Origin: Cyanophora paradoxa CCMP329
Lineage: Eukaryota > Plantae > Glaucophyta
Direction: 5' to 3'
Length of the DNA: 42,215 nucleotides
Assembly: GCA_004431415.1 (NCBI GenBank)
Contig: QPMI01000446.1
Location: forward strand, 1 to 42,215
Notes under the pieces: generated by a model
Told to the model about the DNA's origin: nothing
Seen by the model: only the letters and a program-made list of their open reading frames with translations
Database searches by the model: none
Part shown: positions 19,601 through 41,853 of the stretch, one piece after another
Position numbering within the stretch: the first letter of the stretch is position 1
How the letters are laid out: every line of letters starts with the position of its first letter
Translations under genes and position numbers: made by a program

Positions 19601-19728
19601 ACTAGTGGCCCGGCCGCGTTTTGGCGCGCCGGGGGTGCAAGGGGGGAATCTGGATCTAATGAAAGAGTAGTAGTGGCACGAACATGCACGGGGCAGATGT
19701 AGATTGACCCCGGCCCAGCGCGCGCGGC
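16612..19728 (+). CDS. Spliced host F-box + LRR + ankyrin-repeat protein (one gene or two adjacent genes), 3' end abutting the viral element
   Basis: ATG at 16612 plus intron 16628-16742 gives MDSFPDEVLLAIMSNL..VALVNRRLRALSGDPSLW (F-box). LRR-like CPNLTHLSIS, LNASDVSIT, EKLTKLYLR, RLEELDLS. Ankyrin-like IDARLQDGSTLFLSA, LLALGADESKTDARGRSVLHIAAASGRPQAVREILAAHPGIINAR and GCTALLLAI. Confidence 0.65.
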
Positions 19729-19823
19729 ACACATATTGAAAAACGAATTTAAATCCCTCGTTCATCTCGATCGCTTCGCGATCTCGATTCACTCTGGATT
19801 TAAATTCGTTTTTCAATATGTGT
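19729..19823 (-). other. 95-nt terminal hairpin with G.A-only mismatches and GCGAAGC apex (putative telomere)
   Basis: Perfect 28-bp stem 19729-19756/19796-19823, a 12x12 internal segment with 7 mismatches (all G.A on the minus strand), and a GATCGC-GAA-GCGATC cap. Lies exactly at the host/element boundary. Confidence 0.8.
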
Positions 19824-20143
19824 TAATTTAATACTAAAATACATATTTTTCGATTAATTTCTTAAACTTTTTATGCAAACTTTGTATAAAATAATGCAAA
19901 CTTTGTATTAAAAATGAAAACGCGTTTACCAAAATGCATATTTTCGATTAAACTTCGATAGATTCAATTGATCTTATATCGATTGATTATGTACTTTGTT
20001 GTTTACATACAAATCTGCGATAGATTAACATTAAACTGCTTAAAGATCGATATAATTGCGATTAAATTGCATAAATTCGCATAAACTCGATATATCTCTC
20101 ATGTATTGAAGTAGACCACCGCCCATTCTGTATCGAAAAACGC

Positions 20144-20401
20144 AAAAAGTGTCACAGAGTTGCATTGTGTCCAATTGAACAATCGATGAGATTGCTGATG
20201 TACATTTTTGCACCGAAAAAGTGTCACAGAGTTGCATTATCTCCCATTAAACAATCGATTAGATTGCGGGATTTTCTATTGGAATATATCGGAACTGCAT
20301 TATGTCCAATTAAACAATCGATGAGATTGCGGATTTATATTTTAGATCGAAAAAGTGTCACAGAGTTGCATGGTCTCCAATTGAACAATCGATTAGATTG
20401 C
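20144..20401. repeat. Four degenerate ~65-75-bp subterminal direct repeats
   Basis: Core TGCAT..TCCAATTRAACAATCGATKAGATTGC four times; three copies are preceded by AAAAAGTGTCACAGAGT (20144, 20216, 20350). Confidence 0.85.
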
Positions 20402-20433
20402 ATATGTTCTATAAAACAGAATAATTGAATTCA

Positions 20434-20960
20434 AGTGTGACAGGTAGTATTCAAATGATATTCAGTAATAGATATATTTGTTTTTGAGAAAGTCAGTAAG
20501 AGGGGTAGAATGTCTGTGACAGGTGTGACAGGTGTGACAGGTGTTTTCAGAAGTCTGTCATTTTTGAAAAATTTAGAAAGTTTGAAAATAGGTGTCACAC
20601 CTGTCACACCTGTCACACTCAATTAAACTACCTGTCACACCTGGTCTCCTTACCATTTTCAGTAAGACAGAAAGGTATTCATGAAATCGACTATTGTTGG
20701 GTGGATTTTGAAGGTGTCACACCTGTCACATAGACTGTTTTCAGTAAGACAACAATAAATTCTTGAATATCTCAGTAAGAAATAGAGTCTTTTGTTAATT
20801 GGGTGTGACGGGTGTGACAGGTGTGACAGGTGTTTTCAGAAGTCTGTAATTTGTGAGAATTTTAAAAAGTTTGAAAATAGGTGTCACACCTGTCACAGGC
20901 GTCACAGTCAATTAAATAGGTGTCACACCCGATTATCTGACCATTTTCAGTAAGACCATC
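20434..20960. promoter_or_regulatory. Iteron-like array (GGTGTGACA / TGTCACACC), putative replication origin or end-binding region
   Basis: Two blocks 289 bp apart (20515-20640 and 20801-20930), each 3 forward 9-mers, a ~55-bp AT-rich core and 3+1 inverted 9-mers; about 17 copies in total; also about five CAGTAAGA boxes. Confidence 0.6.
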
Positions 20961-20986
20961 TGAAATTCTGAATTTCTCAGTGTCAA

Positions 20987-21388
20987 CTAACTCGGAAATC
21001 GCAATACTCTATGTTTCTCCGATTTCTCCAACCCTGAAAACACACCTGTTATTCTCTCATCTATCTCATGAGATACTCTCGTGGTTTTTCTCTCTGCTTC
21101 TAATCCACAACTGAATATATCAATCGCCAGCATACCTTCATTTGAGTAACAATGAGCAGTGCAGTGGCTCTCATCCAGCAGAAGAACCATTGCAAAACCA
21201 GGAGGAGAAATACCACCATCGAAAATCTCGCAATGCTTGTGAACTACTCGAATACCTTGCTCTTGAATAATAGTTTGTAAGAACTGCATTAACCACCTGG
21301 TCGTTGTCTCCAAGTCTTCCACTCCTACTGCTAATTGGGTTCTGAATTTGTAATCCAGCATCACATGGAAGCCTCGATGAGTATTCAT
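20987..21388 (-). CDS. speD: S-adenosylmethionine decarboxylase proenzyme, small prokaryotic/phage type
   Basis: 133 aa with G.H..LD N-terminus and GFAMVLLLDESHCTAHCY..EGMLAIDIFSCG, containing the E|SH autocleavage site and DIFxCG motif. Confidence 0.9.
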   Translation of the reverse strand: MNTHRGFHVMLDYKFRTQLAVGVEDLETTTRWLMQFLQTIIQEQGIRVVHKHCEIFDGGISPPGFAMVLLLDESHCTAHCYSNEGMLAIDIFSCGLEAERKTTRVSHEIDERITGVFSGLEKSEKHRVLRFPS

Positions 21389-21428
21389 TTATGAATAATT
21401 TAGAAAAATTAAAAACGCGATTGGTAGA

Positions 21429-21578
21429 ATGCGAACCATCTTAGCAAGAGTGCTACCTTATGAGTTGGTGGATATCATTCTGCTGCACTACCACAAGACC
21501 TGTCCAAACTGCTTTGACACATGCATAATCACAAAGGGAAAATGGGGAAAGATCCTCATTTCTCTCTCAAAGATCTAA
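21429..21578 (+). CDS. 49-aa small ORF (not in ORF track) with LPYELVDIIL and CxxC motifs
   Basis: MRTILARVLPYELVDIILLHYHKTCPNCFDTCIITKGKWGKILISLSKI*; fills the gap between two genes, and its stop overlaps the stop of the convergent 90-aa ORF. Confidence 0.5.
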   Translation: MRTILARVLPYELVDIILLHYHKTCPNCFDTCIITKGKWGKILISLSKI

Positions 21579-21847
21579 TCAAAGTACAGTACCACTGGTT
21601 TATCATCTATCACAATTCCTGATGTAGTCTTTTTTCTGTAAGCATGAGAGGATTTCTTGTTGCACTCTCTGCATCCACTTCCCCTTACATGATTAAATGG
21701 GTAGGTTTGGAGGATCTTGTTGCATTTAAGGCATCTAACAGAGACCTTCTCTTGTGCTTTCTTATACACTGTCTCACTATAATCGAATTTAGCATCACCA
21801 TGAACCATCATTGCAGATTCTATGAATTTCTTTGTTTTATCATCCAT
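21575..21847 (-). CDS. Stand-alone Zn-ribbon repeat unit of the type found in viral homing-endonuclease N-termini (DUF723-like)
   Basis: FIESAMMVHGDAKFDYSETVY...VSVRCLKC...PFNHVRGSGCREC matches the FI..A..VHG.KYDY..V.Y....V.I.C..H/C.....P.NHL.G.GC..C pattern; no nuclease domain follows. Confidence 0.75.
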   Translation of the reverse strand: MDDKTKKFIESAMMVHGDAKFDYSETVYKKAQEKVSVRCLKCNKILQTYPFNHVRGSGCRECNKKSSHAYRKKTTSGIVIDDKPVVLYFD

Positions 21848-21872
21848 TCCTCTCTATATATACCTGAGATTT

Positions 21873-22700
21873 CTATGGAGCAGTATCCTGCCCGAAAATG
21901 GGGAAGTATCGATTTGTGCCGTAATATTCTGCATATGTATTCTGTCTTGCAATAGCATCGGTTCTCTCAGCATAGAGAATGCATTTGTAGATACCAAATC
22001 TGGTGGCTCTCACCAAAAACTGGTAATCTTCAAGACCGAAATTCACTCCATGATAAGCAATCCCGAAATTGTCATATGGAGTGATTACAACTGCAATATT
22101 TGGGGTTCCACCCTCTACTTGACAGACAGCATAAACATCTGGTGGAATATCCACGACCACCTTGTAGTGGTCACCAATCTCAACAAGAGAATCAACTACT
22201 GATGTCTGCTCATTCACAACAATTGGGAAGATCTTGATAATATATGGTGCATTCATACTGGGGACATAGGTGCGAATTCTGGTGTTGGGATCAATGGGAT
22301 TGGGTTGATCATTTACGAAAAGAGGCGCACCAACAGCTCCACCAATCCGAAGACCATCACCAATATATGCTCCCCCCGTTTTGCAGTTAATAGCTCCCGA
22401 CCGAGATTCAAAAGAATAAGTAGAAAGAGGATCACCATAACTGTCTGGGTCTCCATAATGGGCAGAAAAGTTCGCATTTGTCACAAGGAGTTTCGTTGTC
22501 TTAACTATACCATTATTTTTATCACATCTGAGTTCCTGCAATCTCAGTTTATGGGTGGAACCAAAGGTATTCATTGTAGGTTGTACTTCTGTGGATTGGA
22601 GACCTTCTACATCATCAAAAGTAGCATGCTGCAAAACGTGATTTGCAGGTGCTGCTAATGAGAGTTGGGGTGTAATAATTCGCTCTACTGGGGCAGCCAT
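21873..22700 (-). CDS. Fibre/spike paralogue 4 (275 aa): shared N-terminal domain plus unrecognised beta-rich head
   Basis: LRLQELRCDKNNGIVKTTKLLVTNAN and GAINCKTGGAYIG align with the three neighbouring paralogues. Confidence 0.65.
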   Translation of the reverse strand: MAAPVERIITPQLSLAAPANHVLQHATFDDVEGLQSTEVQPTMNTFGSTHKLRLQELRCDKNNGIVKTTKLLVTNANFSAHYGDPDSYGDPLSTYSFESRSGAINCKTGGAYIGDGLRIGGAVGAPLFVNDQPNPIDPNTRIRTYVPSMNAPYIIKIFPIVVNEQTSVVDSLVEIGDHYKVVVDIPPDVYAVCQVEGGTPNIAVVITPYDNFGIAYHGVNFGLEDYQFLVRATRFGIYKCILYAERTDAIARQNTYAEYYGTNRYFPIFGQDTAP

Positions 22701-22723
22701 TTTACATTAAAGTAATATATAAT

Positions 22724-23569
22724 TTATGGGGTTGGGTTATCAATCACATCTGGTTCCTGGTAAAACCCTGTTTGAGAAAGAGTATCAGGAGTAACACCTC
22801 TTAGAGCTGAGACAGCAGCTATATCTGTTCTGATACCCATAACTGTAATTGTATATTTTCCAATATCTGTAACAAACAGATCATAGGTGAAATTGTTATT
22901 ATAAACACAGAACCCTGTGCCGAAATGATCATATCCTTGAACACTGAAATTGTATCTGTGACCTGGCTGGTTATTGTTGGCTCTACATAAAGAAAGCATT
23001 GCAGAAGGAATGACCAGCCCTCTCATTACTCTTTTGGTTCCTTCAATCAATTCAGAGTTTTCAAGTGTGACAGTATAACCTTGGTAAAATTGAATAATTG
23101 GCTGTTGTGCAACTGGTATATATAATCGAATTCGTTGTGGGTCTTCAACATTCTGTTCAAGAGTATCTGGGACATCATTGTATGCAATTGATGAGGAGAG
23201 TTGACCTGAAACTCTGCAACCACCACCAATAAATGCTCCACCTGATCTCACAGTTACAGCAGCAGAATTCTTGTCAAAATCGAGGGCTTTCAGGTCTACA
23301 CTGTAAGCATCAGGACCTCCATTAGTGGGTTGGAAGAAGTTCGCATTTGAGACAAGGAGTCGAGTTGTTTTAACCACACCCGAATTCTTGTCTGCTCTCA
23401 GTTCTTTAACTCGAATAATCGAATTCTTATCAAAGGAGTTACCATTGGAATTGGGTCTCTCTGTGGATTCTAAACCACGAACCTCATCATTAACTTCATG
23501 CTGGCGAAAGTGCATAGCAGGGGATCCAAGGGAATATATTGGAAGTTGAACTCGATTATATTCACCCAT
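22724..23569 (-). CDS. Fibre/spike paralogue 3 (~281 aa from ATG)
   Basis: IRVKELRADKNSGVVKTTRLLVSNAN and AAVTVRSGGAFIG; likely start MGEYNR at 23569. Confidence 0.65.
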   Translation of the reverse strand: MGEYNRVQLPIYSLGSPAMHFRQHEVNDEVRGLESTERPNSNGNSFDKNSIIRVKELRADKNSGVVKTTRLLVSNANFFQPTNGGPDAYSVDLKALDFDKNSAAVTVRSGGAFIGGGCRVSGQLSSSIAYNDVPDTLEQNVEDPQRIRLYIPVAQQPIIQFYQGYTVTLENSELIEGTKRVMRGLVIPSAMLSLCRANNNQPGHRYNFSVQGYDHFGTGFCVYNNNFTYDLFVTDIGKYTITVMGIRTDIAAVSALRGVTPDTLSQTGFYQEPDVIDNPTP

Positions 23570-23607
23570 TGCTTCTTTTACTAAGAAGGAAAGAAAAATA
23601 ATGTACA

Positions 23608-23871
23608 CTACTCTTCTGTGACATTGTTATACTCGATGCCTTTCTTTACAGTTCCCCTTTGGAATGCCTGTAATACAATCGCTTCCTTTGAGGTTGGTAT
23701 CTGAACTCCTGATGAGATGCAAGATTGGATCTCTTTCTGAACAATCTCATCAATTGCGATTCTTGCCCTGTTGTGGGCAGCATTATCAATCCAGTCCTGA
23801 ACAGAAGCAGCGCAATATTCCATTCCCAACTTTTCGGTATCAGTCAGAACTACTTGGTATATATTCGACAT
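23608..23871 (-). CDS. 87-aa protein resembling small cyanophage/marine-phage proteins encoded downstream of C1q-type fibres (possible fibre chaperone)
   Basis: YQVVLTDTEKLGMEYCAASVQDWIDNAAHNRARIAIDEIV..IPTSKEAIVLQAFQRGTVK; recalled similarity, directly downstream of a C1q ORF. Confidence 0.6.
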   Translation of the reverse strand: MSNIYQVVLTDTEKLGMEYCAASVQDWIDNAAHNRARIAIDEIVQKEIQSCISSGVQIPTSKEAIVLQAFQRGTVKKGIEYNNVTEE

Positions 23872-23890
23872 TCTAAACTACTTGTAGAAA

Positions 23891-24912
23891 TTAAATTATG
23901 CTCAGCAATTCGCCACTAAACGTTGTGAATTCTGAAATGGAAGTATCAACAGCATAAATAGAGACATTATCCCCGGCTCCAAGTCTGAGTATTGCGCTCA
24001 AAATGATTGTTTTGTTGGTTACTGTTTGTGAGTTGTTTACCCTGAAATTGAATTCTGTTGAAACATTCTGATCATTTACTTTCAGATCTACACTCACAGA
24101 TGAGGTAACAATACTATAAGAATTAAGAGAGAATCTATAATCTCCACTTATAGGCGCTGTGAATTTCCCTTCTACTACATCAAATGAGTTGGTATTATCA
24201 AAGAATTCATGCAACCAATTAGTAAGACGCCCATATACTCCACTTCTTGTTGCTACACCAAACCCAACACAAAATCGAGGTTGGGTTTCTTGCTTCAAAT
24301 AAAAGTTTGCTGCGATTGTAAGACCCCTGCATCAATTCGTGCGACTTCTGTGCTATTGCGTTTCAGAATGAGATCTACATTTGCTCCTGTATCTATTTCA
24401 GGTGTTTGAATCTTTGTGGTTGTGGTCATCACAGGGACTGTATAAGTAGGAACAAAAAGACCACCATTTGCATTCACAACACCTGTAAATGTCGTTTGGC
24501 CTGAAATTGAGACGTTTGCAGCTGAGAGTGTTCCATTCACAAAAGCTCCCGAACCTATCCATGCTCCACCTGATTTAACTACAAGTGCTGCATTATTTTC
24601 TGTCCCATCAAAAGTAACAATCTGTGGTGTGGTCACCCCACCTGCATCATCATAAATAGCTGCATCAGCAACTACACCACCTGTTAACACCTGATTCTTG
24701 TTACTTACGATTAATTGTGTGGTTCTTATTTTTCCAGCATTTCTATCACATCGAATCTCCTTGCATCTGATAATCAAATTTTGAGTAAACGAATCTGCTC
24801 CTGTGGTTTCTGTGCAAATAAACCCGGGAATAGCATCTGTAACTGTGTGGTTCAGTTGATGCAATTTAGGTGCTGCATAACAGAAAACAGGAACTGCAAT
24901 TTGGGTAGCCAT
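23891..24912 (-). CDS. Fibre paralogue 2 with C-terminal C1q domain, split into 205-aa and 135-aa ORFs by one frameshift (~340 aa if joined)
   Basis: N-part IRCKEIRCDRNAGKIRTTQLIVSNKN..ALVVKSGGAWIG; C-part QPRF..FDVVEGKFTAPISGDYRFSL..LRLGAGDNVSIY..TTFSGELL (C1q). One extra G in AGGGGTCT gives DAGGLTIAANFYLKQETQPRF. Confidence 0.75.
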
Positions 24913-24934
24913 CTATAAATTCCCAACAAAAAGT

Positions 24935-25980
24935 TTATAATCTACTGATGAGATGCCCCCCAAAACAGGTAATACCTTGTATTGTAGCATCATATTGCAT
25001 GGACGATGTCCAGGTTTGTATAACATTCACAAATTCGTTCGCATATACAGCAAAAGAAGCCTCCATATGAACACTTCGCCTTCCATTGTAAGTTGAAAAT
25101 TCTTGAACCGATTGAGGGAAAGAGCCAAATCATTCTTTCTAAATGCAACTCTACACTCCCCTGTTGATGAAGCTGTTGACATTTGAACAATGAAGAAGAA
25201 TCTATAAATTCCGGACACAGGTGCTGTAAAGGTGCCTGTGGATAATGTGATATTATTGCTTGCATCCACAAGAGTTCTGTTAAAAGCGAATCTTCTTGCT
25301 GTTGATGTGGTTCCCACAGTAACTGCTGATGTTGAATAATTTACAATACAAAACCGAGGGTGAGGAGCTTTCAGATATTTAATTAGATTTATTGAAGGGG
25401 AAACATTGTTTATGGTTGCTGTAACCACTGCATTTCTCTTGATATTGAGTGCATTCGATGATTCAATTTCAGGTGTGTTTAACATTGTGGAAAAGACACC
25501 AACACCAACTGAAAAACTACTCGCATTATATCCACCCTCAAAATTTATTGGACTCTCAAACATTCCACTTCCAGCATTTAGTATGGATGCTGTTACTGTT
25601 CCATTCACCTTTAATGCCTCTCCAAAGTATGCTCCTCCACTCTTGACTACAAGAGCGGAAGTATTACTTGTGTTACCAAAAGAAACTATCTGTGCTGTGG
25701 TAAATCCACCTACATTATCATATATTGCTGAATCTGGGACTACTTGACCTGCTTGAACCTGATTTTTATTCGAGATAATAATTCCTGTGGTTCTTATCTT
25801 GCCTCCATTCCTATCACATCGAATTTCTTTGACTCTGAGTATATTATTCTCTGTGAAAGAGGTATTACTTGAAGTTTCAGTACAAATATACCCAGGGGTT
25901 GAATCAACTACTCCATGAGAGGTGCTGTGCAGTGATTTGGCTGCAAGTTCATAGTTTGGGATTTCTAATAGAGAGGTCAT
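24935..25980 (-). CDS. Fibre paralogue 1 with C1q domain (left copy has a 1-bp deletion near 25115)
   Basis: Mirror of 32518-33564; one C fewer in TTTCCCC shifts the last ~60 codons. Confidence 0.75.
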
Positions 25981-25999
25981 CTTTATATTAATCAAATAG

Positions 26000-27694
26000 T
26001 TAAATTGCGACAGCAATGTAATGGATTGTTACAGTTTTGGATGAATTATTCATTGCATATGGATCAGTGAAAAGTTCACAAGTGAAATAGTTACTGTAAA
26101 CATTCAACAGGTTCACAGTAAAAATGACGGGAGTTACTTGATAATTTGGTTCTTGTCCTTCATGCCTTACAGTTGCTGTAACAACAGGAGGAGAAGCAAA
26201 GGCATTGGTAAAATAGATAGTAAGATTGAACACATATAGATTATTGTAATTTAAAACAGGAGTAGTGTAAACATACTTACCTGCTTGAATTTTCCCATTA
26301 AAATATGCATTGAGTTGACTGGAAAGATCTGCTTCTGTAATGCATCGACTGATGGTCGCATTATTTGAGGGGTTCATAGCATAGAAATTCCTTGCATATG
26401 CATTTCCACGAACAAGTAAGGTTTTATCAAAGTAATTCTGCGAATTGTGGAAGAACCATGTTTCTTCAAACATAGGTCCTGCTGGTTCTACAATCTGACC
26501 TGATCCTACATACATCGTGTTGTTGGCTCTAATAGTGGTTGCTGTGAATGGATCAAGAGTAGGTCGATCTGTAATATCTCCCCAAAGGTGTGTGTGAGCA
26601 AAATCTGTAATTTGAGACTTAGTATGAGTATGAGCAAAGTCTGTAATCTCACCTTTGGTGTGAGTGTGTGCAAAATCTGTTATCTCACTCTTTACATGGG
26701 TGTGAGCAAAGTCTGTAATCTCTCCTTTGGTGTGAGTGTGTGCAAAATCTGTTATCTGTGACTTTGTGTGAGTGTGTGCGAAATCTGTGATTTCAGATTT
26801 AAAATGAGTGTGAGCGAAATTCGTGATATCTGCTCTGGTGTGGAAGTGAGCAAAATCTGTTATCTGGGATTTGGTGTGAGTGTGTGCAAAATCTATAATT
26901 TCTGCCTTTGTGTGGGTGTGTGATCTATTATTCAGATCAAGGAAACTACCTGAGTATGCAACAGGGTGTAAATTGGATGGGGTGGGTTTATTGAGGAGAT
27001 CATTATAATCTCCTGTGAAAGAGATCGTTTTCAGTTCACCCCTTCCAACATAATCAGAAGGTAGGTCAATCTTAATGGGCATAATAGCTGGATCATCTGG
27101 GATCTCATACTCACCTCCTGGATGTACAACTGGGAAGGTTTGATTACTTTCAGTGTGGACAAAGAAGTTACATGCTGTCACTGTTCCATCAATTATTCCA
27201 CCTGTGAGAGGGAGGTAATCACCTGTCACACCAATATTAATACCTGCAATAATTGTATTCAGTTCTGTTTCATCTATGTAGTTTTGGGCTTGAAGGTAAT
27301 CCTCTGTTACCACTCTTGATATGGTCTCATTGTGAATATTCTTTGCTGCTGCCCTTTGATTGATTTCTAAAACTCCCTCACCAACTCCACCATTATAATT
27401 CGTTTTTATCCATGAGATTTCGCATCTCTTGTAGTCATCTCGATTTCCAATGAGAGCATTGGGTAACAATCTCTCTCTGCTGAATATTAATTTGGGTCTT
27501 GAACTATCTAAGTCACTAACATCAGTTACATTAATTTGGATTGCTGCATCTTTGTCATCATAGTTTGCTGGATCAGATGGTAGAGAGATCAATCCTCCTG
27601 TCATTGGGATGTCATCTGCATAGTAACTGGTTAAATAGATACCTGGTTTGGTGTCCATCAAACCGAAATTTCCGCCTGCTGCAATTATCTGCAT
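26000..27694 (-). CDS. HxH-repeat tail-fibre-like protein, 564 aa (left copy)
   Basis: Same translation as 30804-32498. Confidence 0.8.
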   Translation of the reverse strand: MQIIAAGGNFGLMDTKPGIYLTSYYADDIPMTGGLISLPSDPANYDDKDAAIQINVTDVSDLDSSRPKLIFSRERLLPNALIGNRDDYKRCEISWIKTNYNGGVGEGVLEINQRAAAKNIHNETISRVVTEDYLQAQNYIDETELNTIIAGINIGVTGDYLPLTGGIIDGTVTACNFFVHTESNQTFPVVHPGGEYEIPDDPAIMPIKIDLPSDYVGRGELKTISFTGDYNDLLNKPTPSNLHPVAYSGSFLDLNNRSHTHTKAEIIDFAHTHTKSQITDFAHFHTRADITNFAHTHFKSEITDFAHTHTKSQITDFAHTHTKGEITDFAHTHVKSEITDFAHTHTKGEITDFAHTHTKSQITDFAHTHLWGDITDRPTLDPFTATTIRANNTMYVGSGQIVEPAGPMFEETWFFHNSQNYFDKTLLVRGNAYARNFYAMNPSNNATISRCITEADLSSQLNAYFNGKIQAGKYVYTTPVLNYNNLYVFNLTIYFTNAFASPPVVTATVRHEGQEPNYQVTPVIFTVNLLNVYSNYFTCELFTDPYAMNNSSKTVTIHYIAVAI

Positions 27695-29075: not shown

Positions 29076-29160
29076 CCCACCTGATAATGAGAGAATTACA
29101 CGAAGGGGCATCTTTACTTAACTCAAATTTAATAAATCTCTATAAGTAGAGTAAATTGGG

Positions 29161-30813: not shown

Positions 30814-32498
30814 TTGCAGCAGGCGGAAATTTCGGTTTGATGGACACCAAACCAGGTATCTATTTAACCAGTTACTATGCAGATGACATCCCAATGACAG
30901 GAGGATTGATCTCTCTACCATCTGATCCAGCAAACTATGATGACAAAGATGCAGCAATCCAAATTAATGTAACTGATGTTAGTGACTTAGATAGTTCAAG
31001 ACCCAAATTAATATTCAGCAGAGAGAGATTGTTACCCAATGCTCTCATTGGAAATCGAGATGACTACAAGAGATGCGAAATCTCATGGATAAAAACGAAT
31101 TATAATGGTGGAGTTGGTGAGGGAGTTTTAGAAATCAATCAAAGGGCAGCAGCAAAGAATATTCACAATGAGACCATATCAAGAGTGGTAACAGAGGATT
31201 ACCTTCAAGCCCAAAACTACATAGATGAAACAGAACTGAATACAATTATTGCAGGTATTAATATTGGTGTGACAGGTGATTACCTCCCTCTCACAGGTGG
31301 AATAATTGATGGAACAGTGACAGCATGTAACTTCTTTGTCCACACTGAAAGTAATCAAACCTTCCCAGTTGTACATCCAGGAGGTGAGTATGAGATCCCA
31401 GATGATCCAGCTATTATGCCCATTAAGATTGACCTACCTTCTGATTATGTTGGAAGGGGTGAACTGAAAACGATCTCTTTCACAGGAGATTATAATGATC
31501 TCCTCAATAAACCCACCCCATCCAATTTACACCCTGTTGCATACTCAGGTAGTTTCCTTGATCTGAATAATAGATCACACACCCACACAAAGGCAGAAAT
31601 TATAGATTTTGCACACACTCACACCAAATCCCAGATAACAGATTTTGCTCACTTCCACACCAGAGCAGATATCACGAATTTCGCTCACACTCATTTTAAA
31701 TCTGAAATCACAGATTTCGCACACACTCACACAAAGTCACAGATAACAGATTTTGCACACACTCACACCAAAGGAGAGATTACAGACTTTGCTCACACCC
31801 ATGTAAAGAGTGAGATAACAGATTTTGCACACACTCACACCAAAGGTGAGATTACAGACTTTGCTCATACTCATACTAAGTCTCAAATTACAGATTTTGC
31901 TCACACACACCTTTGGGGAGATATTACAGATCGACCTACTCTTGATCCATTCACAGCAACCACTATTAGAGCCAACAACACGATGTATGTAGGATCAGGT
32001 CAGATTGTAGAACCAGCAGGACCTATGTTTGAAGAAACATGGTTCTTCCACAATTCGCAGAATTACTTTGATAAAACCTTACTTGTTCGTGGAAATGCAT
32101 ATGCAAGGAATTTCTATGCTATGAACCCCTCAAATAATGCGACCATCAGTCGATGCATTACAGAAGCAGATCTTTCCAGTCAACTCAATGCATATTTTAA
32201 TGGGAAAATTCAAGCAGGTAAGTATGTTTACACTACTCCTGTTTTAAATTACAATAATCTATATGTGTTCAATCTTACTATCTATTTTACCAATGCCTTT
32301 GCTTCTCCTCCTGTTGTTACAGCAACTGTAAGGCATGAAGGACAAGAACCAAATTATCAAGTAACTCCCGTCATTTTTACTGTGAACCTGTTGAATGTTT
32401 ACAGTAACTATTTCACTTGTGAACTTTTCACTGATCCATATGCAATGAATAATTCATCCAAAACTGTAACAATCCATTACATTGCTGTCGCAATTTAA
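30804..32498 (+). CDS. HxH-repeat tail-fibre-like protein with H-type-lectin/gp53-like C-terminus, 564 aa
   Basis: YLPLTGG, FTGDYNDLLNKP, ten 12-aa HTHTKSQITDFA-type repeats (~31577-31936), and C-terminal YFTNAFASPPVVTAT..VTIHYIAV. Confidence 0.8.
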   Translation: MQIIAAGGNFGLMDTKPGIYLTSYYADDIPMTGGLISLPSDPANYDDKDAAIQINVTDVSDLDSSRPKLIFSRERLLPNALIGNRDDYKRCEISWIKTNYNGGVGEGVLEINQRAAAKNIHNETISRVVTEDYLQAQNYIDETELNTIIAGINIGVTGDYLPLTGGIIDGTVTACNFFVHTESNQTFPVVHPGGEYEIPDDPAIMPIKIDLPSDYVGRGELKTISFTGDYNDLLNKPTPSNLHPVAYSGSFLDLNNRSHTHTKAEIIDFAHTHTKSQITDFAHFHTRADITNFAHTHFKSEITDFAHTHTKSQITDFAHTHTKGEITDFAHTHVKSEITDFAHTHTKGEITDFAHTHTKSQITDFAHTHLWGDITDRPTLDPFTATTIRANNTMYVGSGQIVEPAGPMFEETWFFHNSQNYFDKTLLVRGNAYARNFYAMNPSNNATISRCITEADLSSQLNAYFNGKIQAGKYVYTTPVLNYNNLYVFNLTIYFTNAFASPPVVTATVRHEGQEPNYQVTPVIFTVNLLNVYSNYFTCELFTDPYAMNNSSKTVTIHYIAVAI

Positions 32499-32517
32499 CT
32501 ATTTGATTAATATAAAG

Positions 32518-33564
32518 ATGACCTCTCTATTAGAAATCCCAAACTATGAACTTGCAGCCAAATCACTGCACAGCACCTCTCATGGAGTAGTTGATTCAAC
32601 CCCTGGGTATATTTGTACTGAAACTTCAAGTAATACCTCTTTCACAGAGAATAATATACTCAGAGTCAAAGAAATTCGATGTGATAGGAATGGAGGCAAG
32701 ATAAGAACCACAGGAATTATTATCTCGAATAAAAATCAGGTTCAAGCAGGTCAAGTAGTCCCAGATTCAGCAATATATGATAATGTAGGTGGATTTACCA
32801 CAGCACAGATAGTTTCTTTTGGTAACACAAGTAATACTTCCGCTCTTGTAGTCAAGAGTGGAGGAGCATACTTTGGAGAGGCATTAAAGGTGAATGGAAC
32901 AGTAACAGCATCCATACTAAATGCTGGAAGTGGAATGTTTGAGAGTCCAATAAATTTTGAGGGTGGATATAATGCGAGTAGTTTTTCAGTTGGTGTTGGT
33001 GTCTTTTCCACAATGTTAAACACACCTGAAATTGAATCATCGAATGCACTCAATATCAAGAGAAATGCAGTGGTTACAGCAACCATAAACAATGTTTCCC
33101 CTTCAATAAATCTAATTAAATATCTGAAAGCTCCTCACCCTCGGTTTTGTATTGTAAATTATTCAACATCAGCAGTTACTGTGGGAACCACATCAACAGC
33201 AAGAAGATTCGCTTTTAACAGAACTCTTGTGGATGCAAGCAATAATATCACATTATCCACAGGCACCTTTACAGCACCTGTGTCCGGAATTTATAGATTC
33301 TTCTTCATTGTTCAAATGTCAACAGCTTCATCAACAGGGGAGTGTAGAGTTGCATTTAGAAAGAATGATTTGGCTCTTTCCCCTCAATCGGTTCAAGAAT
33401 TTTCAACTTACAATGGAAGGCGAAGTGTTCATATGGAGGCTTCTTTTGCTGTATATGCGAACGAATTTGTGAATGTTATACAAACCTGGACATCGTCCAT
33501 GCAATATGATGCTACAATACAAGGTATTACCTGTTTTGGGGGGCATCTCATCAGTAGATTATAA
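32518..33564 (+). CDS. Fibre paralogue 1 with C-terminal C1q domain (348 aa from ATG)
   Basis: LRVKEIRCDRNGGKIRTTGIIISNKN..ALVVKSGGAYFG; C1q motifs HPRF..FAFNRTLVDASNNITLSTGTFTAPVSGIYRFFF..TCFGGHLI. Confidence 0.8.
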   Translation: MTSLLEIPNYELAAKSLHSTSHGVVDSTPGYICTETSSNTSFTENNILRVKEIRCDRNGGKIRTTGIIISNKNQVQAGQVVPDSAIYDNVGGFTTAQIVSFGNTSNTSALVVKSGGAYFGEALKVNGTVTASILNAGSGMFESPINFEGGYNASSFSVGVGVFSTMLNTPEIESSNALNIKRNAVVTATINNVSPSINLIKYLKAPHPRFCIVNYSTSAVTVGTTSTARRFAFNRTLVDASNNITLSTGTFTAPVSGIYRFFFIVQMSTASSTGECRVAFRKNDLALSPQSVQEFSTYNGRRSVHMEASFAVYANEFVNVIQTWTSSMQYDATIQGITCFGGHLISRL

Positions 33565-33586
33565 ACTTTTTGTTGGGAATTTATAG

Positions 33587-34607
33587 ATGGCTACCCAAAT
33601 TGCAGTTCCTGTTTTCTGTTATGCAGCACCTAAATTGCATCAACTGAACCACACAGTTACAGATGCTATTCCCGGGTTTATTTGCACAGAAACCACAGGA
33701 GCAGATTCGTTTACTCAAAATTTGATTATCAGATGCAAGGAGATTCGATGTGATAGAAATGCTGGAAAAATAAGAACCACACAATTAATCGTAAGTAACA
33801 AGAATCAGGTGTTAACAGGTGGTGTAGTTGCTGATGCAGCTATTTATGATGATGCAGGTGGGGTGACCACACCACAGATTGTTACTTTTGATGGGACAGA
33901 AAATAATGCAGCACTTGTAGTTAAATCAGGTGGAGCATGGATAGGTTCGGGAGCTTTTGTGAATGGAACACTCTCAGCTGCAAACGTCTCAATTTCAGGC
34001 CAAACGACATTTACAGGTGTTGTGAATGCAAATGGTGGTCTTTTTGTTCCTACTTATACAGTCCCTGTGATGACCACAACCACAAAGATTCAAACACCTG
34101 AAATAGATACAGGAGCAAATGTAGATCTCATTCTGAAACGCAATAGCACAGAAGTCGCACGAATTGATGCAGGGGTCTTACAATCGCAGCAAACTTTTAT
34201 TTGAAGCAAGAAACCCAACCTCGATTTTGTGTTGGGTTTGGTGTAGCAACAAGAAGTGGAGTATATGGGCGTCTTACTAATTGGTTGCATGAATTCTTTG
34301 ATAATACCAACTCATTTGATGTAGTAGAAGGGAAATTCACAGCGCCTATAAGTGGAGATTATAGATTCTCTCTTAATTCTTATAGTATTGTTACCTCATC
34401 TGTGAGTGTAGATCTGAAAGTAAATGATCAGAATGTTTCAACAGAATTCAATTTCAGGGTAAACAACTCACAAACAGTAACCAACAAAACAATCATTTTG
34501 AGCGCAATACTCAGACTTGGAGCCGGGATAATGTCTCTATTTATGCTGTTGATACTTCCATTTCAGAATTCACAACGTTTAGTGGCGAATTGCTGAGCAT
34601 AATTTAA
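33587..34607 (+). CDS. Fibre paralogue 2 with C1q domain (right copy; shared frameshift near 34172 plus an arm-specific one near 34525)
   Basis: Mirror of 23891-24912. Confidence 0.7.
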
Positions 34608-34626
34608 TTTCTACAAGTAGTTTAGA

Positions 34627-34890
34627 ATGTCGAATATATACCAAGTAGTTCTGACTGATACCGAAAAGTTGGGAATGGAATATTGCGCTGCTTCTGTTCA
34701 GGACTGGATTGATAATGCTGCCCACAACAGGGCAAGAATCGCAATTGATGAGATTGTTCAGAAAGAGATCCAATCTTGCATCTCATCAGGAGTTCAGATA
34801 CCAACCTCAAAGGAAGCGATTGTATTACAGGCATTCCAAAGGGGAACTGTAAAGAAAGGCATCGAGTATAACAATGTCACAGAAGAGTAG
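34627..34890 (+). CDS. 87-aa cyanophage-like fibre partner protein (right copy)
   Basis: Same translation as 23608-23871. Confidence 0.6.
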   Translation: MSNIYQVVLTDTEKLGMEYCAASVQDWIDNAAHNRARIAIDEIVQKEIQSCISSGVQIPTSKEAIVLQAFQRGTVKKGIEYNNVTEE

Positions 34891-34928
34891 TGTACATTAT
34901 TTTTCTTTCCTTCTTAGTAAAAGAAGCA

Positions 34929-35774
34929 ATGGGTGAATATAATCGAGTTCAACTTCCAATATATTCCCTTGGATCCCCTGCTATGCACTTTCGCCAGCAT
35001 GAAGTTAATGATGAGGTTCGTGGTTTAGAATCCACAGAGAGACCCAATTCCAATGGTAACTCCTTTGATAAGAATTCGATTATTCGAGTTAAAGAACTGA
35101 GAGCAGACAAGAATTCGGGTGTGGTTAAAACAACTCGACTCCTTGTCTCAAATGCGAACTTCTTCCAACCCACTAATGGAGGTCCTGATGCTTACAGTGT
35201 AGACCTGAAAGCCCTCGATTTTGACAAGAATTCTGCTGCTGTAACTGTGAGATCAGGTGGAGCATTTATTGGTGGTGGTTGCAGAGTTTCAGGTCAACTC
35301 TCCTCATCAATTGCATACAATGATGTCCCAGATACTCTTGAACAGAATGTTGAAGACCCACAACGAATTCGATTATATATACCAGTTGCACAACAGCCAA
35401 TTATTCAATTTTACCAAGGTTATACTGTCACACTTGAAAACTCTGAATTGATTGAAGGAACCAAAAGAGTAATGAGAGGGCTGGTCATTCCTTCTGCAAT
35501 GCTTTCTTTATGTAGAGCCAACAATAACCAGCCAGGTCACAGATACAATTTCAGTGTTCAAGGATATGATCATTTCGGCACAGGGTTCTGTGTTTATAAT
35601 AACAATTTCACCTATGATCTGTTTGTTACAGATATTGGAAAATATACAATTACAGTTATGGGTATCAGAACAGATATAGCTGCTGTCTCAGCTCTAAGAG
35701 GTGTTACTCCTGATACTCTTTCTCAAACAGGGTTTTACCAGGAACCAGATGTGATTGATAACCCAACCCCATAA
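34929..35774 (+). CDS. Fibre/spike paralogue 3 (right copy)
   Basis: Same translation as 22724-23569. Confidence 0.65.
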   Translation: MGEYNRVQLPIYSLGSPAMHFRQHEVNDEVRGLESTERPNSNGNSFDKNSIIRVKELRADKNSGVVKTTRLLVSNANFFQPTNGGPDAYSVDLKALDFDKNSAAVTVRSGGAFIGGGCRVSGQLSSSIAYNDVPDTLEQNVEDPQRIRLYIPVAQQPIIQFYQGYTVTLENSELIEGTKRVMRGLVIPSAMLSLCRANNNQPGHRYNFSVQGYDHFGTGFCVYNNNFTYDLFVTDIGKYTITVMGIRTDIAAVSALRGVTPDTLSQTGFYQEPDVIDNPTP

Positions 35775-35797
35775 ATTATATATTACTTTAATGTAAA

Positions 35798-36624
35798 ATG
35801 GCTGCCCCAGTAGAGCGAATTATTACACCCCAACTCTCATTAGCAGCACCTGCAAATCACGTTTTGCAGCATGCTACTTTTGATGATGTAGAAGGTCTCC
35901 AATCCACAGAAGTACAACCTACAATGAATACCTTTGGTTCCACCCATAAACTGAGATTGCAGGAACTCAGATGTGATAAAAATAATGGTATAGTTAAGAC
36001 AACGAAACTCCTTGTGACAAATGCGAACTTTTCTGCCCATTATGGAGACCCAGACAGTTATGGTGATCCTCTTCTACTTATTCTTTTGAATCTCGGTCGG
36101 GAGCTATTAACTGCAAAACGGGGGGAGCATATATTGGTGATGGTCTTCGGATTGGTGGAGCTGTTGGTGCGCCTCTTTTCGTAAATGATCAACCCAATCC
36201 CATTGATCCCAACACCAGAATTCGCACCTATGTCCCAAGTATGAATGCACCATATATTATCAAGATCTTCCCAATTGTTGTGAATGAGCAGACATCAGTA
36301 GTTGATTCTCTTGTTGAGATTGGTGACCACTACAAGGTGGTCGTGGATATTCCACCAGATGTTTATGCTGTCTGTCAAGTAGAGGGTGGAACCCCAAATA
36401 TTGCAGTTGTAATCACTCCATATGACAATTTCGGGATTGCTTATCATGGAGTGAATTTCGGTCTTGAAGATTACCAGTTTTTGGTGAGAGCCACCAGATT
36501 TGGTATCTACAAATGCATTCTCTATGCTGAGAGAACCGATGCTATTGCAAGACAGAATACATATGCAGAATATTACGGCACAAATCGATACTTCCCCATT
36601 TTCGGGCAGGATACTGCTCCATAG
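35798..36624 (+). CDS. Fibre/spike paralogue 4 (right copy, 1-bp deletion near 36072)
   Basis: Mirror of 21873-22700; CCTCTTCTA here versus CCTCTTTCTA in the left arm. Confidence 0.6.
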
Positions 36625-36649
36625 AAATCTCAGGTATATATAGAGAGGA

Positions 36650-36922
36650 ATGGATGATAAAACAAAGAAATTCATAGAATCTGCAATGATGGTTCATGGT
36701 GATGCTAAATTCGATTATAGTGAGACAGTGTATAAGAAAGCACAAGAGAAGGTCTCTGTTAGATGCCTTAAATGCAACAAGATCCTCCAAACCTACCCAT
36801 TTAATCATGTAAGGGGAAGTGGATGCAGAGAGTGCAACAAGAAATCCTCTCATGCTTACAGAAAAAAGACTACATCAGGAATTGTGATAGATGATAAACC
36901 AGTGGTACTGTACTTTGATTAG
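36650..36922 (+). CDS. Stand-alone Zn-ribbon (DUF723-like) protein (right copy)
   Basis: Same translation as 21575-21847. Confidence 0.75.
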   Translation: MDDKTKKFIESAMMVHGDAKFDYSETVYKKAQEKVSVRCLKCNKILQTYPFNHVRGSGCRECNKKSSHAYRKKTTSGIVIDDKPVVLYFD

Positions 36923-37068
36923 ATCTTTGAGAGAGAAATGAGGATCTTTCCCCATTTTCCCTTTGTGATTATGCATGTGTCAAAGCAGTTTGGACAGGTC
37001 TTGTGGTAGTGCAGCAGAATGATATCCACCAACTCATAAGGTAGCACTCTTGCTAAGATGGTTCGCAT
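36919..37068 (-). CDS. 49-aa small ORF (right copy)
   Basis: Mirror of 21429-21578. Confidence 0.5.
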   Translation of the reverse strand: MRTILARVLPYELVDIILLHYHKTCPNCFDTCIITKGKWGKILISLSKI

Positions 37069-37108
37069 TCTACCAATCGCGTTTTTAATTTTTCTAAATT
37101 ATTCATAA

Positions 37109-37509
37109 ATGAATACTCATCGAGGCTTCCATGTGATGCTGGATTACAAATTCAGAACCCAATTAGCAGTAGGAGTGGAAGACTTGGAGACAACGACCAG
37201 GTGGTTAATGCAGTTCTTACAAACTATTATTCAAGAGCAAGGTATTCGAGTAGTTCACAAGCATTGCGAGATTTTCGATGGTGGTATTTCTCCTCCTGGT
37301 TTTGCAATGGTTCTTCTGCTGGATGAGAGCCACTGCACTGCTCATTGTTACTCAAATGAAGGTATGCTGGCGATTGATATATTCAGTTGTGGATTAGAAG
37401 CAGAGAGAAAACCACGAGAGTATCTCATGAGATAGATGAGAGAATAACAGGTGTGTTTTCAGGGTTGGAGAAATCGGAGAAACATAGAGTATTGCGATTT
37501 CCGAGTTAG
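37109..37509 (+). CDS. speD: S-adenosylmethionine decarboxylase (right copy, 1-bp deletion in an A run near 37410)
   Basis: Mirror of 20987-21388 with ESH and DIFSCG motifs. Confidence 0.85.
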
Positions 37510-37534
37510 TTGACACTGAGAAATTCAGAATTTC

Positions 37535-38349
37535 AGATGGTCTTACTGAAATGGTCAGATAATCGGGTGTGACACCTATTTAATTGACTGTGACGCCTGT
37601 GACAGGTGTGACACCTATTTTCAAACTTTTTAAAATTCTCACAAATTACAGACTTCTGAAAACACCTGTCACACCTGTCACACCCGTCACACCCAATTAA
37701 CAAAGACTCTATTTCTTACTGAGATATTCAAGATTTATTGTTGTCTTACTGAAAACAGTCTATGTGACAGGTGTGACACCTTCAAAATCCACCCAACAAT
37801 AGTCGATTTCATGAATACCTTTCTGTCTTACTGAAAATGGTAAGGAGACCAGGTGTGACAGGTAGTTTAATTGAGTGTGACAGGTGTGACAGGTGTGACA
37901 CCTATTTTCAAACTTTCTAAATTTTTCAAAAATGACAGACTTCTGAAAACACCTGTCACACCTGTCACACCTGTCACAGACATTCTACCCCTCTTACTGA
38001 CTTTCTCAAAAACAAATATATCTATTACTGAATATCATTTGAATACTACCTGTCACACTTGAATTCAATTATTCTGTTTTATAGAACATATGCAATCTAA
38101 TCGATTGTTCAATTGGAGACCATGCAACTCTGTGACACTTTTTCGATCTAAAATATAAATCCGCAATCTCATCGATTGTTTAATTGGACATAATGCAGTT
38201 CCGATATATTCCAATAGAAAATCCCGCAATCTAATCGATTGTTTAATGGGAGATAATGCAACTCTGTGACACTTTTTCGGTGCAAAAATGTACATCAGCA
38301 ATCTCATCGATTGTTCAATTGGACACAATGCAACTCTGTGACACTTTTT
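37535..38349. repeat. Mirror copy of the iteron-like array and ~70-bp subterminal repeats
   Basis: Reverse complement of 20144-20960. Confidence 0.85.
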
Positions 38350-38669
38350 GCGTTTTTCGATACAGAATGGGCGGTGGTCTACTTCAATACATGAGAGATA
38401 TATCGAGTTTATGCGAATTTATGCAATTTAATCGCAATTATATCGATCTTTAAGCAGTTTAATGTTAATCTATCGCAGATTTGTATGTAAACAACAAAGT
38501 ACATAATCAATCGATATAAGATCAATTGAATCTATCGAAGTTTAATCGAAAATATGCATTTTGGTAAACGCGTTTTCATTTTTAATACAAAGTTTGCATT
38601 ATTTTATACAAAGTTTGCATAAAAAGTTTAAGAAATTAATCGAAAAATATGTATTTTAGTATTAAATTA

Positions 38670-38764
38670 ACACATATTGAAAAACGAATTTAAATCCAGA
38701 GTGAATCGAGATCGCGAAGCGATCGAGATGAACGAGGGATTTAAATTCGTTTTTCAATATGTGT
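38670..38764 (+). other. Terminal hairpin, right copy (G.A strand is the + strand here)
   Basis: ACACATATTGAAAAACGAATTTAAATCC-AGAGTGAATCGA-GATCGC-GAA-GCGATC-GAGATGAACGAG-GGATTTAAATTCGTTTTTCAATATGTGT. Confidence 0.8.
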
Positions 38765-41700: not shown

Positions 41701-41853
41701 ATGATAGCGAGGAGGACTTCATCTGCGCACGAAATGTGCCATGTATGATCGCGAGCACCGAAATGTGCCATATGCATTAAATGCGAAAGCCGTCGGCGCA
41801 TTGCAATCATGATCACCAGCGGGAGATTTTCGATTACCAGGGAAGGAGTCCAT
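38765..41853 (-). pseudogene. Mirror copy of the F-box/LRR/ankyrin gene with many 1-bp deletions (probably low-quality consensus)
   Basis: Reverse complement of 16612-19728 with more than 20 net missing bases, judged from the drift in mirror coordinate sums. Confidence 0.6.

What the first reader, a model, noticed from the sequence alone, without database searches (positions are those of the whole stretch)
19729..38764. Endogenous eukaryotic virus-like element whose visible cargo is a bacteriophage-style fibre/adhesin cassette
Seen: an AT-rich, intronless block of about 9-11 ORFs joined to a spliced GC-rich gene, ordered hairpin, repeats, AdoMetDC, Zn-ribbon, then 5-6 fibre genes and a small partner. 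The fibre motifs (YLPLTGG, HxH repeats, DLG..W, C1q heads) are typical of tailed phages, but there is no consistent Shine-Dalgarno and the flank is eukaryotic. No capsid, pPolB, ATPase or integrase is present. Inference: terminal fragment of an unclassified protist virus (nucleocytovirus, mirusvirus or large polinton-like/virophage type) that built its attachment apparatus from phage genes.
Basis: partly seen in the sequence, partly recalled or inferred. Interest (0 to 1): 0.85.

Follow-up and report, generated by a model that had tools for sequence, protein, structure and literature searches.

The report
Hairpin-ended virus fragment in glaucophyte alga
This is one 9.7-kb end of an AT-rich DNA element joined to a spliced algal gene and shown twice by a mirror-image fold in the sequence; it is likely a Polinton-like virus of Cyanophora-type algae whose predicted attachment fibres carry phage-type tips on an unnamed shared base domain, and phage-like fibres are already known in such viruses.

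Summary
The features are real, but the element is half the stated size. Window 16246-29075 is mirrored at 29423-42215 (99.5%), host flank included, so only 19729-29422 is unique. It has a 95-nt terminal hairpin at a sharp GC step, an array of 9-bp repeats, AdoMetDC, a zinc finger and 5-6 fibre-like genes; no capsid, polymerase, ATPase or integrase. A phage chimera is very unlikely. The hairpin's translation matches 29 of 29 residues at the start of a published Cyanophora paradoxa gene call, where it abuts a different flank (a truncated capsid gene). A host gene at the far end of the window has one hit, from C. paradoxa. The domain shared by four fibres has named relatives only in multi-copy C. 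paradoxa genes. Best reading: the end of an integrated, multi-copy Polinton-like virus/virophage-type element of a glaucophyte (0.65); giant-virus end 0.15. Phage-like fibres, a PTR+H-lectin fibre in a C. paradoxa PLV, and terminal palindromes are in print. New: the unnamed N-terminal domain family, AdoMetDC cargo, and the repeat array beside the hairpin. Family membership cannot be tested without the missing core genes; no reads could be examined.

The parts
16246..19728 (+). Host flank: GC-rich gene(s) with F-box and ankyrin exons and short intron-like gaps; last exon appears to stop about 60 nt before the element (read by eye)
19729..19823 (.). Terminal palindrome: 28-bp perfect stem, 39-nt imperfect centre; element end. 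Same sequence (as translation) occurs at another locus in C. paradoxa with a different flank
20144..20401 (.). Three degenerate subterminal direct repeats (73-91% alike), each holding one copy of the 7-bp core
20436..20956 (.). Iteron-like array: 9-bp repeats in head-to-head runs around an AT-rich spacer, the 154-bp unit duplicated (20515-20668, 20804-20956; 88%); likely replication origin (inferred)
20987..21388 (-). Class 1b AdoMetDC homologue, 133 aa, ESH self-cleavage motif aligned to solved enzymes; substrate untested
21429..21578 (+). 49-aa ORF with a CxxC pair, no family
21575..21847 (-). 90-aa zinc-finger protein like the repeat domain of phage HNH/endonuclease proteins
21873..22700 (-). 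g275: shared N-terminal domain plus predicted beta-sandwich tip weakly like H-type lectins and fibre tips; two environmental relatives at 65%
22724..23569 (-). g281: full-length paralogue of g275 (33%)
23608..23871 (-). g87: small partner, 47-52% identical to genes in 23 viral loci; follows a C1q-like fibre gene in several of them
23891..24912 (-). C1q fibre A: shared N-terminal domain plus C1q head, split by one frameshift in both arms
24935..25980 (-). C1q fibre B: shared N-terminal domain plus C1q head; frameshifted in this arm, open (348 aa) in the mirror copy 32518-33564
26000..27694 (-). g564: fibre with YLPLTGG motif, about nine 12-aa His repeats (PTR-like) and a weak C-terminal H-lectin match; overlaps g550 by 10 nt with no AT-rich leader, so possibly the 3' half of one long fibre gene
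27685..29075 (-). 3' part of g550 (complete, 550 aa, at 29161-30813 +): acidic repeats and phage tail-type FPP..H.H repeats; its last 400 nt here are a second allele (12 codons differ, 10 synonymous)
29076..29422 (+). Unique 347-nt centre of the palindrome: upstream region, start codon and first 87 codons of g550; the fold-back junction is 29075/29076
29423..38764 (+). Mirror copy of the element half; not a terminal inverted repeat
38765..42215 (-). Mirror copy of the host flank with many 1-nt deletions

Best explanation
The unique stretch 19729-29422 is one end of an AT-rich element joined to a spliced algal gene, likely a multi-copy Polinton-like virus or virophage-type provirus of a Cyanophora-type glaucophyte, and the rest of the window is a mirror copy, likely an assembly fold-back. 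Shown: the hairpin marks the boundary here and, by translation, at a second locus in C. paradoxa with another flank. Inferred: an integrase encoded in the missing part joins this end precisely to host DNA; after excision the palindrome folds into a hairpin and, with the 9-bp repeat array 0.7 kb inward, serves as origin for an element-encoded primase/helicase rather than a protein-primed polymerase. Shown: four genes share an unnamed ~125-aa N-terminal domain followed by different C-terminal domains (C1q twice, lectin-like beta-sandwich twice), and relatives fuse it to C1q or to another C-terminal domain. Inferred: the domain anchors trimeric fibres on the capsid and the tips, exchanged with phages, bind the host surface; g550/g564 form a long fibre and g87 assists assembly. 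AdoMetDC likely adjusts polyamine supply; its substrate is untested.
For: Boundary reused: window 19730-19816 translates to the first 29 residues of gene_58741 on C. paradoxa contig QPMI01000594.1, 29 of 29 identical, after which the two diverge. Host gene 42-1597: one hit among the 7998 candidates scored, C. paradoxa, 57-63%. N-terminal domain: 7 hits in 1.84 billion representatives; 3 clusters are C. paradoxa (16 sequences, listed on 16 contigs), 4 unnamed environmental. C. paradoxa has 366 PLV-type capsid genes and a PLV with a PTR-PTR-H_lectin fibre, the architecture of g564. Terminal palindromes occur in endogenous virophages and PLVs with non-pPolB replication genes. Multi-copy signs: second allele in 28678-29008 (10 of 12 changed codons synonymous); arm-to-arm indels 13 in the last host kb against 0 in the first element kb. 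The repeat cluster lies in or at the 3' end of a primase/helicase gene in 4 of 11 viral loci with the pattern (3 independent). CpG o/e 0.37, below all 23 phage-like control loci (0.44-0.68).
Against: No hallmark gene is present, so the class is not shown. The capsid gene beside the second hairpin copy is most simply the target of an insertion, not the element's own gene. That the C. paradoxa genes with the N-terminal domain lie in PLVs was not tested, and they are only about 19-26% identical over the alignment. AdoMetDC of class 1b is reported from Algavirales and phages and the term was absent from all 20 listed PLV/virophage papers. A 102-bp incompletely paired terminal hairpin is also a nucleocytovirus feature, and C. 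paradoxa has giant-virus insertions. The H-lectin, PTR and zinc-finger Pfam matches are below cut-off; the fold match is weak (Z 5.7, rmsd 2.9, 86 aligned) and the N-terminal domain did not fold confidently. The helicases beside the phage repeats are AAA_25 type, not D5 type. Host GC here (0.57) is well below the 67.6% given for C. paradoxa. No reads were examined.
Confidence: 0.65

Rival explanations
1. It is the terminal 10 kb of an integrated nucleocytovirus (giant endogenous viral element) whose linear genome had covalently closed hairpin ends, with fibre genes in the variable end region.
For: 95-nt incompletely paired hairpin resembles the 102-bp Kaumoebavirus end; class 1b AdoMetDC is known in Algavirales; C. 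paradoxa has GEVEs.
Against: Signs of several near-identical copies and of precise insertion at unrelated sites; the signature domain sits in a 16-contig multi-copy family; no relative in IMG/VR.
Confidence: 0.15
2. It is a non-autonomous or deleted satellite that keeps the ends, origin and fibre genes and borrows capsid, replicase and integrase from a helper PLV.
For: No core gene in 9.7 kb; one or two frameshifts shared by both arms; the second hairpin copy abuts a PLV-type capsid gene.
Against: The sequence is cut by the fold-back inside a gene-dense run (98% coding), so absence is uninformative; PLVs of 15-30 kb leave room for the core; frameshifts of the same kind differ between arms and occur in host genes.
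Confidence: 0.1
3. Separate question, not exclusive with the above: the mirror is real DNA, a giant palindrome or head-to-head junction of two copies formed at a pre-existing diverged inverted repeat (28678-29075 with 29423-29820) around the 347-nt spacer.
For: All 13 central substitutions cluster in the 400 nt next to the junction and are mostly synonymous, which sequencing error cannot give; the junction is asymmetric.
Against: The host gene is mirrored to the window end; 43 of 49 indel columns are bases missing from the right arm, concentrated far from the centre; polishing with reads from another copy anchored in the unique spacer would give the same cluster (inference).
Confidence: 0.25
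4. It is a chimeric join of host DNA with a co-cultured tailed phage.
For: g87 with a C1q neighbour matches freshwater cyanophage-like loci at 47-52%; g550 repeats match tail proteins in 409 phage records; fold neighbours of g275 are phage proteins.
Against: The same hairpin end lies in a C. paradoxa nuclear contig; the N-terminal domain has no hit in PHROGs, IMG/VR, JGI metagenomes, GTDB genomes or the phage record set; the hairpin stem has no exact match in IMG/VR or GTDB; the join falls exactly at the hairpin end.
Confidence: 0.03
5. It belongs to another eukaryotic DNA virus group (mirusvirus or unclassified).
For: Nothing specific; core genes are missing.
Against: No marker; three papers hold both 'Cyanophora' and 'mirusvirus' and the passages read from one do not report a mirusvirus in this alga.
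Confidence: 0.05

Closest known systems
Endogenous Polinton-like viruses of Cyanophora paradoxa (PMC10120064 supplement; PMC12220804)
   Same: Host lineage; identical terminal 29-codon stretch at one locus; shared N-terminal fibre domain in multi-copy genes; PTR + H-lectin fibre architecture.
   Different: No capsid gene here to place it in either of the two reported clusters; fibre proteins only distantly related to annotated C. paradoxa models; AdoMetDC and repeat array not reported for them in the text seen.
Palindrome-ended endogenous virophages and PLV subtype 4 of Halocafeteria seosinensis (bioRxiv 10.64898/2026.07.28.741278)
   Same: AT-rich insertion in a GC-richer host; palindrome at the very end; proposed hairpin-primed, non-pPolB replication.
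   Different: Their example palindrome is 52 nt, here 95 nt with an imperfect centre; TIR, target-site duplication and replication gene cannot be seen here; different host supergroup.
PLV Gezel-14T (PgVV-14T) and cryptophyte PLV fibres (bioRxiv 10.1101/2022.07.28.501842; PMC12220804)
   Same: Phage-like fibre proteins; in Gezel-14T found in virions.
   Different: Here 5-6 adjacent genes, four on one unnamed N-terminal domain, with C1q tips; 'C1q' does not occur in PMC12220804's main text.
Hairpin-ended nucleocytoviruses (Kaumoebavirus LCC10, PMC7909422)
   Same: About 100-nt incompletely paired terminal hairpin next to a repeat-rich non-coding end.
   Different: Here the hairpin is joined to host DNA at two unrelated sites; no giant-virus core gene seen.
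Freshwater cyanophage-like C1q fibre plus small partner module (loci L001-L023; Synechococcus phage S-SRM01, Limnohabitans phage DC33)
   Same: g87 at 43-52% identity, adjacent to a C1q gene in the same order.
   Different: Phage C1q fibres match only the head; the N-terminal domain and all other genes are not shared.

Membership tests
Polinton-like virus / virophage | Double jelly-roll major capsid and penton genes | not testable with these tools
   Absent from the visible 9.7 kb, but the sequence folds back at 29075; no genome, contig look-up or reads available.
Polinton-like virus / virophage | A32-like packaging ATPase | not testable with these tools
   Not in the visible half.
Polinton-like virus / virophage | pPolB or primase-helicase; RVE or tyrosine integrase | not testable with these tools
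   Not in the visible half; only indirect signs (precise end, repeat array).
Polinton-like virus / virophage | 15-40 kb length bounded by TIRs with a target-site duplication | not testable with these tools
   Only one true end is present; the apparent second end is a mirror that includes host DNA.
Polinton-like virus / virophage | Gene-dense, intronless insertion with GC shift in a eukaryotic chromosome | tested here: met
   GC 0.57 to 0.34-0.40, GC3 0.67-0.83 against 0.27-0.39, 98% coding; F-box and ankyrin flank.
Polinton-like virus / virophage | Several copies at unrelated genomic sites | tested here: inconclusive
   Same end at one other locus, seen only as a published translation and possibly in another strain or species; second allele and indel step are indirect.
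Nucleocytoviricota (GEVE) | Core genes (PolB, MCP, A32, D5, VLTF3) in a genome over 100 kb | not testable with these tools
   None in the visible half.
Nucleocytoviricota (GEVE) | Incompletely paired terminal hairpin (pox/asfar/chlorovirus type) | tested here: inconclusive
   Structure alike but also described for virophages and PLVs; flip/flop forms not testable.
Tailed phage (Caudoviricetes) | Terminase, portal, HK97 capsid, lysis genes; bacterial context | tested here: not met
   No such PHROG among 12 ORFs; flank eukaryotic. Applies to the visible half only.
Class 1b AdoMetDC | Fold family with E|S self-cleavage site and downstream cysteine | tested here: met
   Pfam 43 bits over cut-off 25; ESH and CG aligned to solved enzymes. 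Below the TIGR03330 equivalog cut-off (42 against 75.65).
Class 1b AdoMetDC | Decarboxylates S-adenosylmethionine rather than ornithine or arginine | not testable with these tools
   Viral homologues switch substrate (PMC9992855); needs an assay.

The most novel reading that the evidence does not exclude
A recently mobile, hairpin-primed virus of glaucophytes that has moved between Cyanophora lineages with an unchanged end, uses a phage-type iteron origin, and displays an array of exchangeable phage-derived tips on its own lineage-specific anchor domain; at the boldest, the 347-nt segment carrying the fibre gene's promoter and start between two 400-nt diverged inverted repeats is an invertible switch that toggles fibre cassettes, a phase-variation device not seen in the PLV papers read. 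The switch alone has a probability of about 0.05.
Probability: 0.15. Interest if true: 0.8.

Novelty: new variant of a known kind. Interest (0 to 1): 0.45.

Why it matters
It gives a concrete handle on the uncharacterised viruses of glaucophytes: a 95-nt end sequence that can be used to pull out and delimit every copy in Cyanophora genomes, and an unnamed domain that marks their fibre genes. If full copies carry a primase-helicase and no pPolB, the hairpin-primed replication model proposed for Halocafeteria elements gains an independent, testable case with a candidate origin. The anchor-plus-tip layout would show how eukaryotic viruses reuse phage receptor-binding domains. It also warns that this contig doubles the element.

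Tried and rejected
Mirror as terminal inverted repeats: rejected, host gene mirrored too. g275 as penton or capsid: no jelly-roll capsid among the leading matches; Foldseek on PDB gave no hit at E 0.001 and the wide search tops at H-type lectin and fibre tips with Z 5.7 or less; a family not listed is not excluded. Recalled lead that the host was Paratrimastix: dropped. Shine-Dalgarno absence as evidence: not discriminating. TCTA (recalled giant-virus late promoter) lies 16-22 nt upstream of 3 of 10 starts; not tested further. No relatives with genomic context: N-terminal domain in IMG/VR, JGI metagenomes, GTDB, phage records; g550; g564 in phage records; AdoMetDC; hairpin stem. ESM Atlas for g275 gave unnamed viral clusters at 0.93 with recognition below threshold, weak. 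AlphaFold of the 348-aa fibre modelled only the C1q head. C. paradoxa contig names were not in the supplement of PMC12344493. No tRNA. Earlier scan findings: none in 4 look-ups.


Full report
1. Layout of the window. The window holds a near-perfect palindrome: 16246-29075 aligns to the reverse complement of 29423-42215 at 99.5%, with a unique 347-nt centre, 29076-29422. The mirror runs 3.5 kb into the GC-rich flank, so it is not a terminal inverted repeat of the element. The centre belongs to the right-hand reading: a 550-aa ORF starts at 29161 after an AT-rich leader and runs into the right arm, while the left copy is cut at 29075. The unique element is therefore 19729-29422, about 9.7 kb, and it is open-ended. 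Of 49 indel columns between the arms, 43 are bases missing on the right; 42 lie in 3483 nt of host flank and 7 in 9346 nt of element. This pattern fits a fold-back assembly with falling consensus quality (inference). Of 18 substitutions, 13 cluster in 28678-29008; they change 12 codons, 10 synonymously. That is a real second allele, so a second copy of this gene region exists in the sample. Either reads of another copy polished one arm, or the fold-back arose at a pre-existing diverged inverted repeat; reads are needed to tell and could not be examined.

2. The end. GC drops from 0.57 to 0.34-0.40 at 19729. The first 95 nt form a 28-bp perfect stem with a 39-nt imperfect centre (z -9.7). Three degenerate repeats follow, then a 9-bp repeat in head-to-head runs around an AT-rich spacer, the unit duplicated at 88% (11 copies against 0.01 expected). 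An exact 22-nt pattern from the array hit 11 IMG/VR loci. In 4 of 11 (L024, L028, L033, L034; three independent) the cluster lies in or at the 3' end of a gene with an AAA_25 helicase domain, with Toprim in the same or the adjacent gene; L030 repeats L024; in L032 it lies in the gene before a DnaB helicase; in L025 and L031 about 2 kb from a primase-type gene (L031 scanned: Prim-Pol plus AAA_25); in L026, L027 and L029 there are only two or three copies in unrelated genes. An origin function is an inference from this.

3. The genes. AdoMetDC passes the Pfam cut-off and keeps the self-cleavage motif. The zinc finger matches phage endonuclease-associated domains. Four genes share an N-terminal domain of about 125 aa (31-48% pairwise) with no Pfam, PHROG or NCBIfam match of note. 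Two end in C1q heads; in g275 the C-terminal domain models at pLDDT about 70 and resembles H-type lectins and fibre tips weakly. g87 has relatives in 23 viral loci at 47-52%, and the C1q head of its neighbour matches adjacent genes in 5 of these loci. g550 carries tail-type repeats; g564 has PTR-like His repeats and a weak H-lectin end. One C1q gene is split in both arms; g550 and g564 overlap by 10 nt without a leader and may be one gene. Frameshifts that differ between arms and one in a host gene show that such breaks can be consensus errors. No capsid, ATPase, polymerase, integrase, terminase, portal or holin family was found in the ORFs scanned.

4. Where the relatives are. A profile of the N-terminal domain found 7 proteins among 1.84 billion representatives: four unnamed environmental sequences from contigs of 1.3-3.3 kb and three clusters of Cyanophora paradoxa gene models, 16 sequences listed on 16 different contigs. 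Twelve invariant columns hold across 13 aligned sequences, and C1q follows the domain in 4 of the 7 relatives scanned, 3 at or above cut-off. Searches of IMG/VR, JGI metagenomes, GTDB genomes and phage records found none; these pattern searches have limited reach. Independently, the host gene at 42-1597 has a single hit, C. paradoxa tig00000654_g2818 at 57-63%. The host is thus a Cyanophora-type glaucophyte; its GC here (0.57) is lower than the 67.6% reported for C. paradoxa, so it may be another species or an atypical region.

5. The decisive link. In Table S2 of PMC10120064, gene_58741 on C. paradoxa contig QPMI01000594.1, called a major capsid protein by HHpred (96.9%), begins with 29 residues identical to residues 3-31 of the minus-strand translation of window 19700-19822 (compared by eye). 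After them the window continues into host DNA and the published gene into a capsid sequence that, against gene_49165 in the same table, lacks about 25 N-terminal residues. The switch falls within two bases of the hairpin end. The simplest reading is that an element with this end inserted into another element's capsid gene; if the hairpin occurs in flipped form, it could be a deleted copy joined to its own capsid gene. Either way the end is used precisely at two unrelated sites in glaucophyte nuclear DNA, which a chance phage chimera would not give. Only the translation was seen, not the DNA.

6. Comparison with what is known. C. paradoxa has 366 PLV-type capsid genes in two clusters (PMC10120064: passages and supplement rows). 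PLVs commonly encode phage-like fibres and one C. paradoxa PLV has PTR-PTR-H_lectin (PMC12220804: passages, part 1 of 2 of section 13, supplement rows). Gezel-14T carries its fibre in virions (10.1101/2022.07.28.501842: passages). Terminal palindromes linked to non-pPolB replication are described in Halocafeteria virophages and one PLV subtype (10.64898/2026.07.28.741278: passages and section 7; its supplements are closed and may bear on palindrome length and gene content). On the other side, Kaumoebavirus has a 102-bp imperfect hairpin end (PMC7909422: passages), C. paradoxa has giant-virus insertions (PMC12344493: passages, supplement search empty), and class 1b AdoMetDC is known in Algavirales and phages with changes of substrate (PMC9992855: passages). 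Term searches in 10.64898/2026.10.13.758929, 10.64898/2026.10.09.758095 and 10.64898/2026.06.19.733378 gave nothing on Cyanophora or hairpins where those terms were asked; PMC8502044 mentions adintovirus-like proteins in C. paradoxa contigs (one passage); PMC6704402 has no mention of viruses (passages). No description of this element, its N-terminal domain or AdoMetDC in a PLV appeared in searches (listings only); the library omits most subscription papers.

7. Mechanism. Shown: a precise hairpin end, a repeat array, a modular fibre cassette, a glaucophyte context. Inferred: integrase-mediated insertion, hairpin-primed replication by a primase/helicase at the repeat array, capsid anchoring through the N-terminal domain, host binding through exchanged tips. 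It works like a palindrome-ended PLV or virophage; membership is untested because every defining gene would lie beyond the fold-back. Weak support: CpG o/e 0.37 is below all 23 phage-like control loci, which are related to each other. Against over-reading: the Shine-Dalgarno argument fails its control, and the structural matches are weak.

8. Verdict. A real endogenous viral end, half the size reported, most likely of PLV/virophage type (0.65). The headline feature, phage-style fibres in a eukaryotic virus, is known. The unnamed anchor domain, the AdoMetDC cargo, the origin-like array and the usable end sequence make it a new variant worth one targeted follow-up. Interest 0.45.

Noticed in passing
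window 7588-14769: Twelve near-identical tandem copies of a 585-591-nt unit, each coding fibronectin type III domains (Pfam fn3 E 2e-23); spacings of 584, 589 and 590 look like consensus errors.
   Followed up: partly
window 42-2260: Long exon(s) with a repeated Cys-containing beta domain, no Pfam family; only hit is C. paradoxa tig00000654_g2818 (57-63%); a frameshift near 540.
   Followed up: partly
window 28678-29008: 13 substitutions between the arms, 10 of 12 codons synonymous, confined to the 400 nt next to the fold-back: a second allele of g550.
   Followed up: partly
window 19729-20430: The subterminal region is rich in ATCGAT (12 in 19729-20986 against 1.2 expected, largest of 2000 simulations 10) and is not CpG-depleted, unlike the genes (o/e 0.37).
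   Followed up: no
PMC10120064 Table S2, gene_58741 (QPMI01000594.1): This published capsid prediction is a chimera: its first 29 residues are the read-through of this element's hairpin, not capsid.
   Followed up: yes
P0006, P0011, P0012 (C. paradoxa models): The N-terminal domain is fused to a different C-terminal domain with no Pfam hit in P0006; by recall it resembles intramolecular chaperone domains. Several other models stop near residue 120.
   Followed up: no
L024, L028, L031, L032, L033: The same 9-bp repeat forms head-to-head clusters in or near primase/helicase genes of unrelated phages, suggesting a widespread origin motif.
   Followed up: partly
window 16229-16320 and 42143-42215: The mirror ends inside a poly-C/poly-G tract at the window end.
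   Followed up: no
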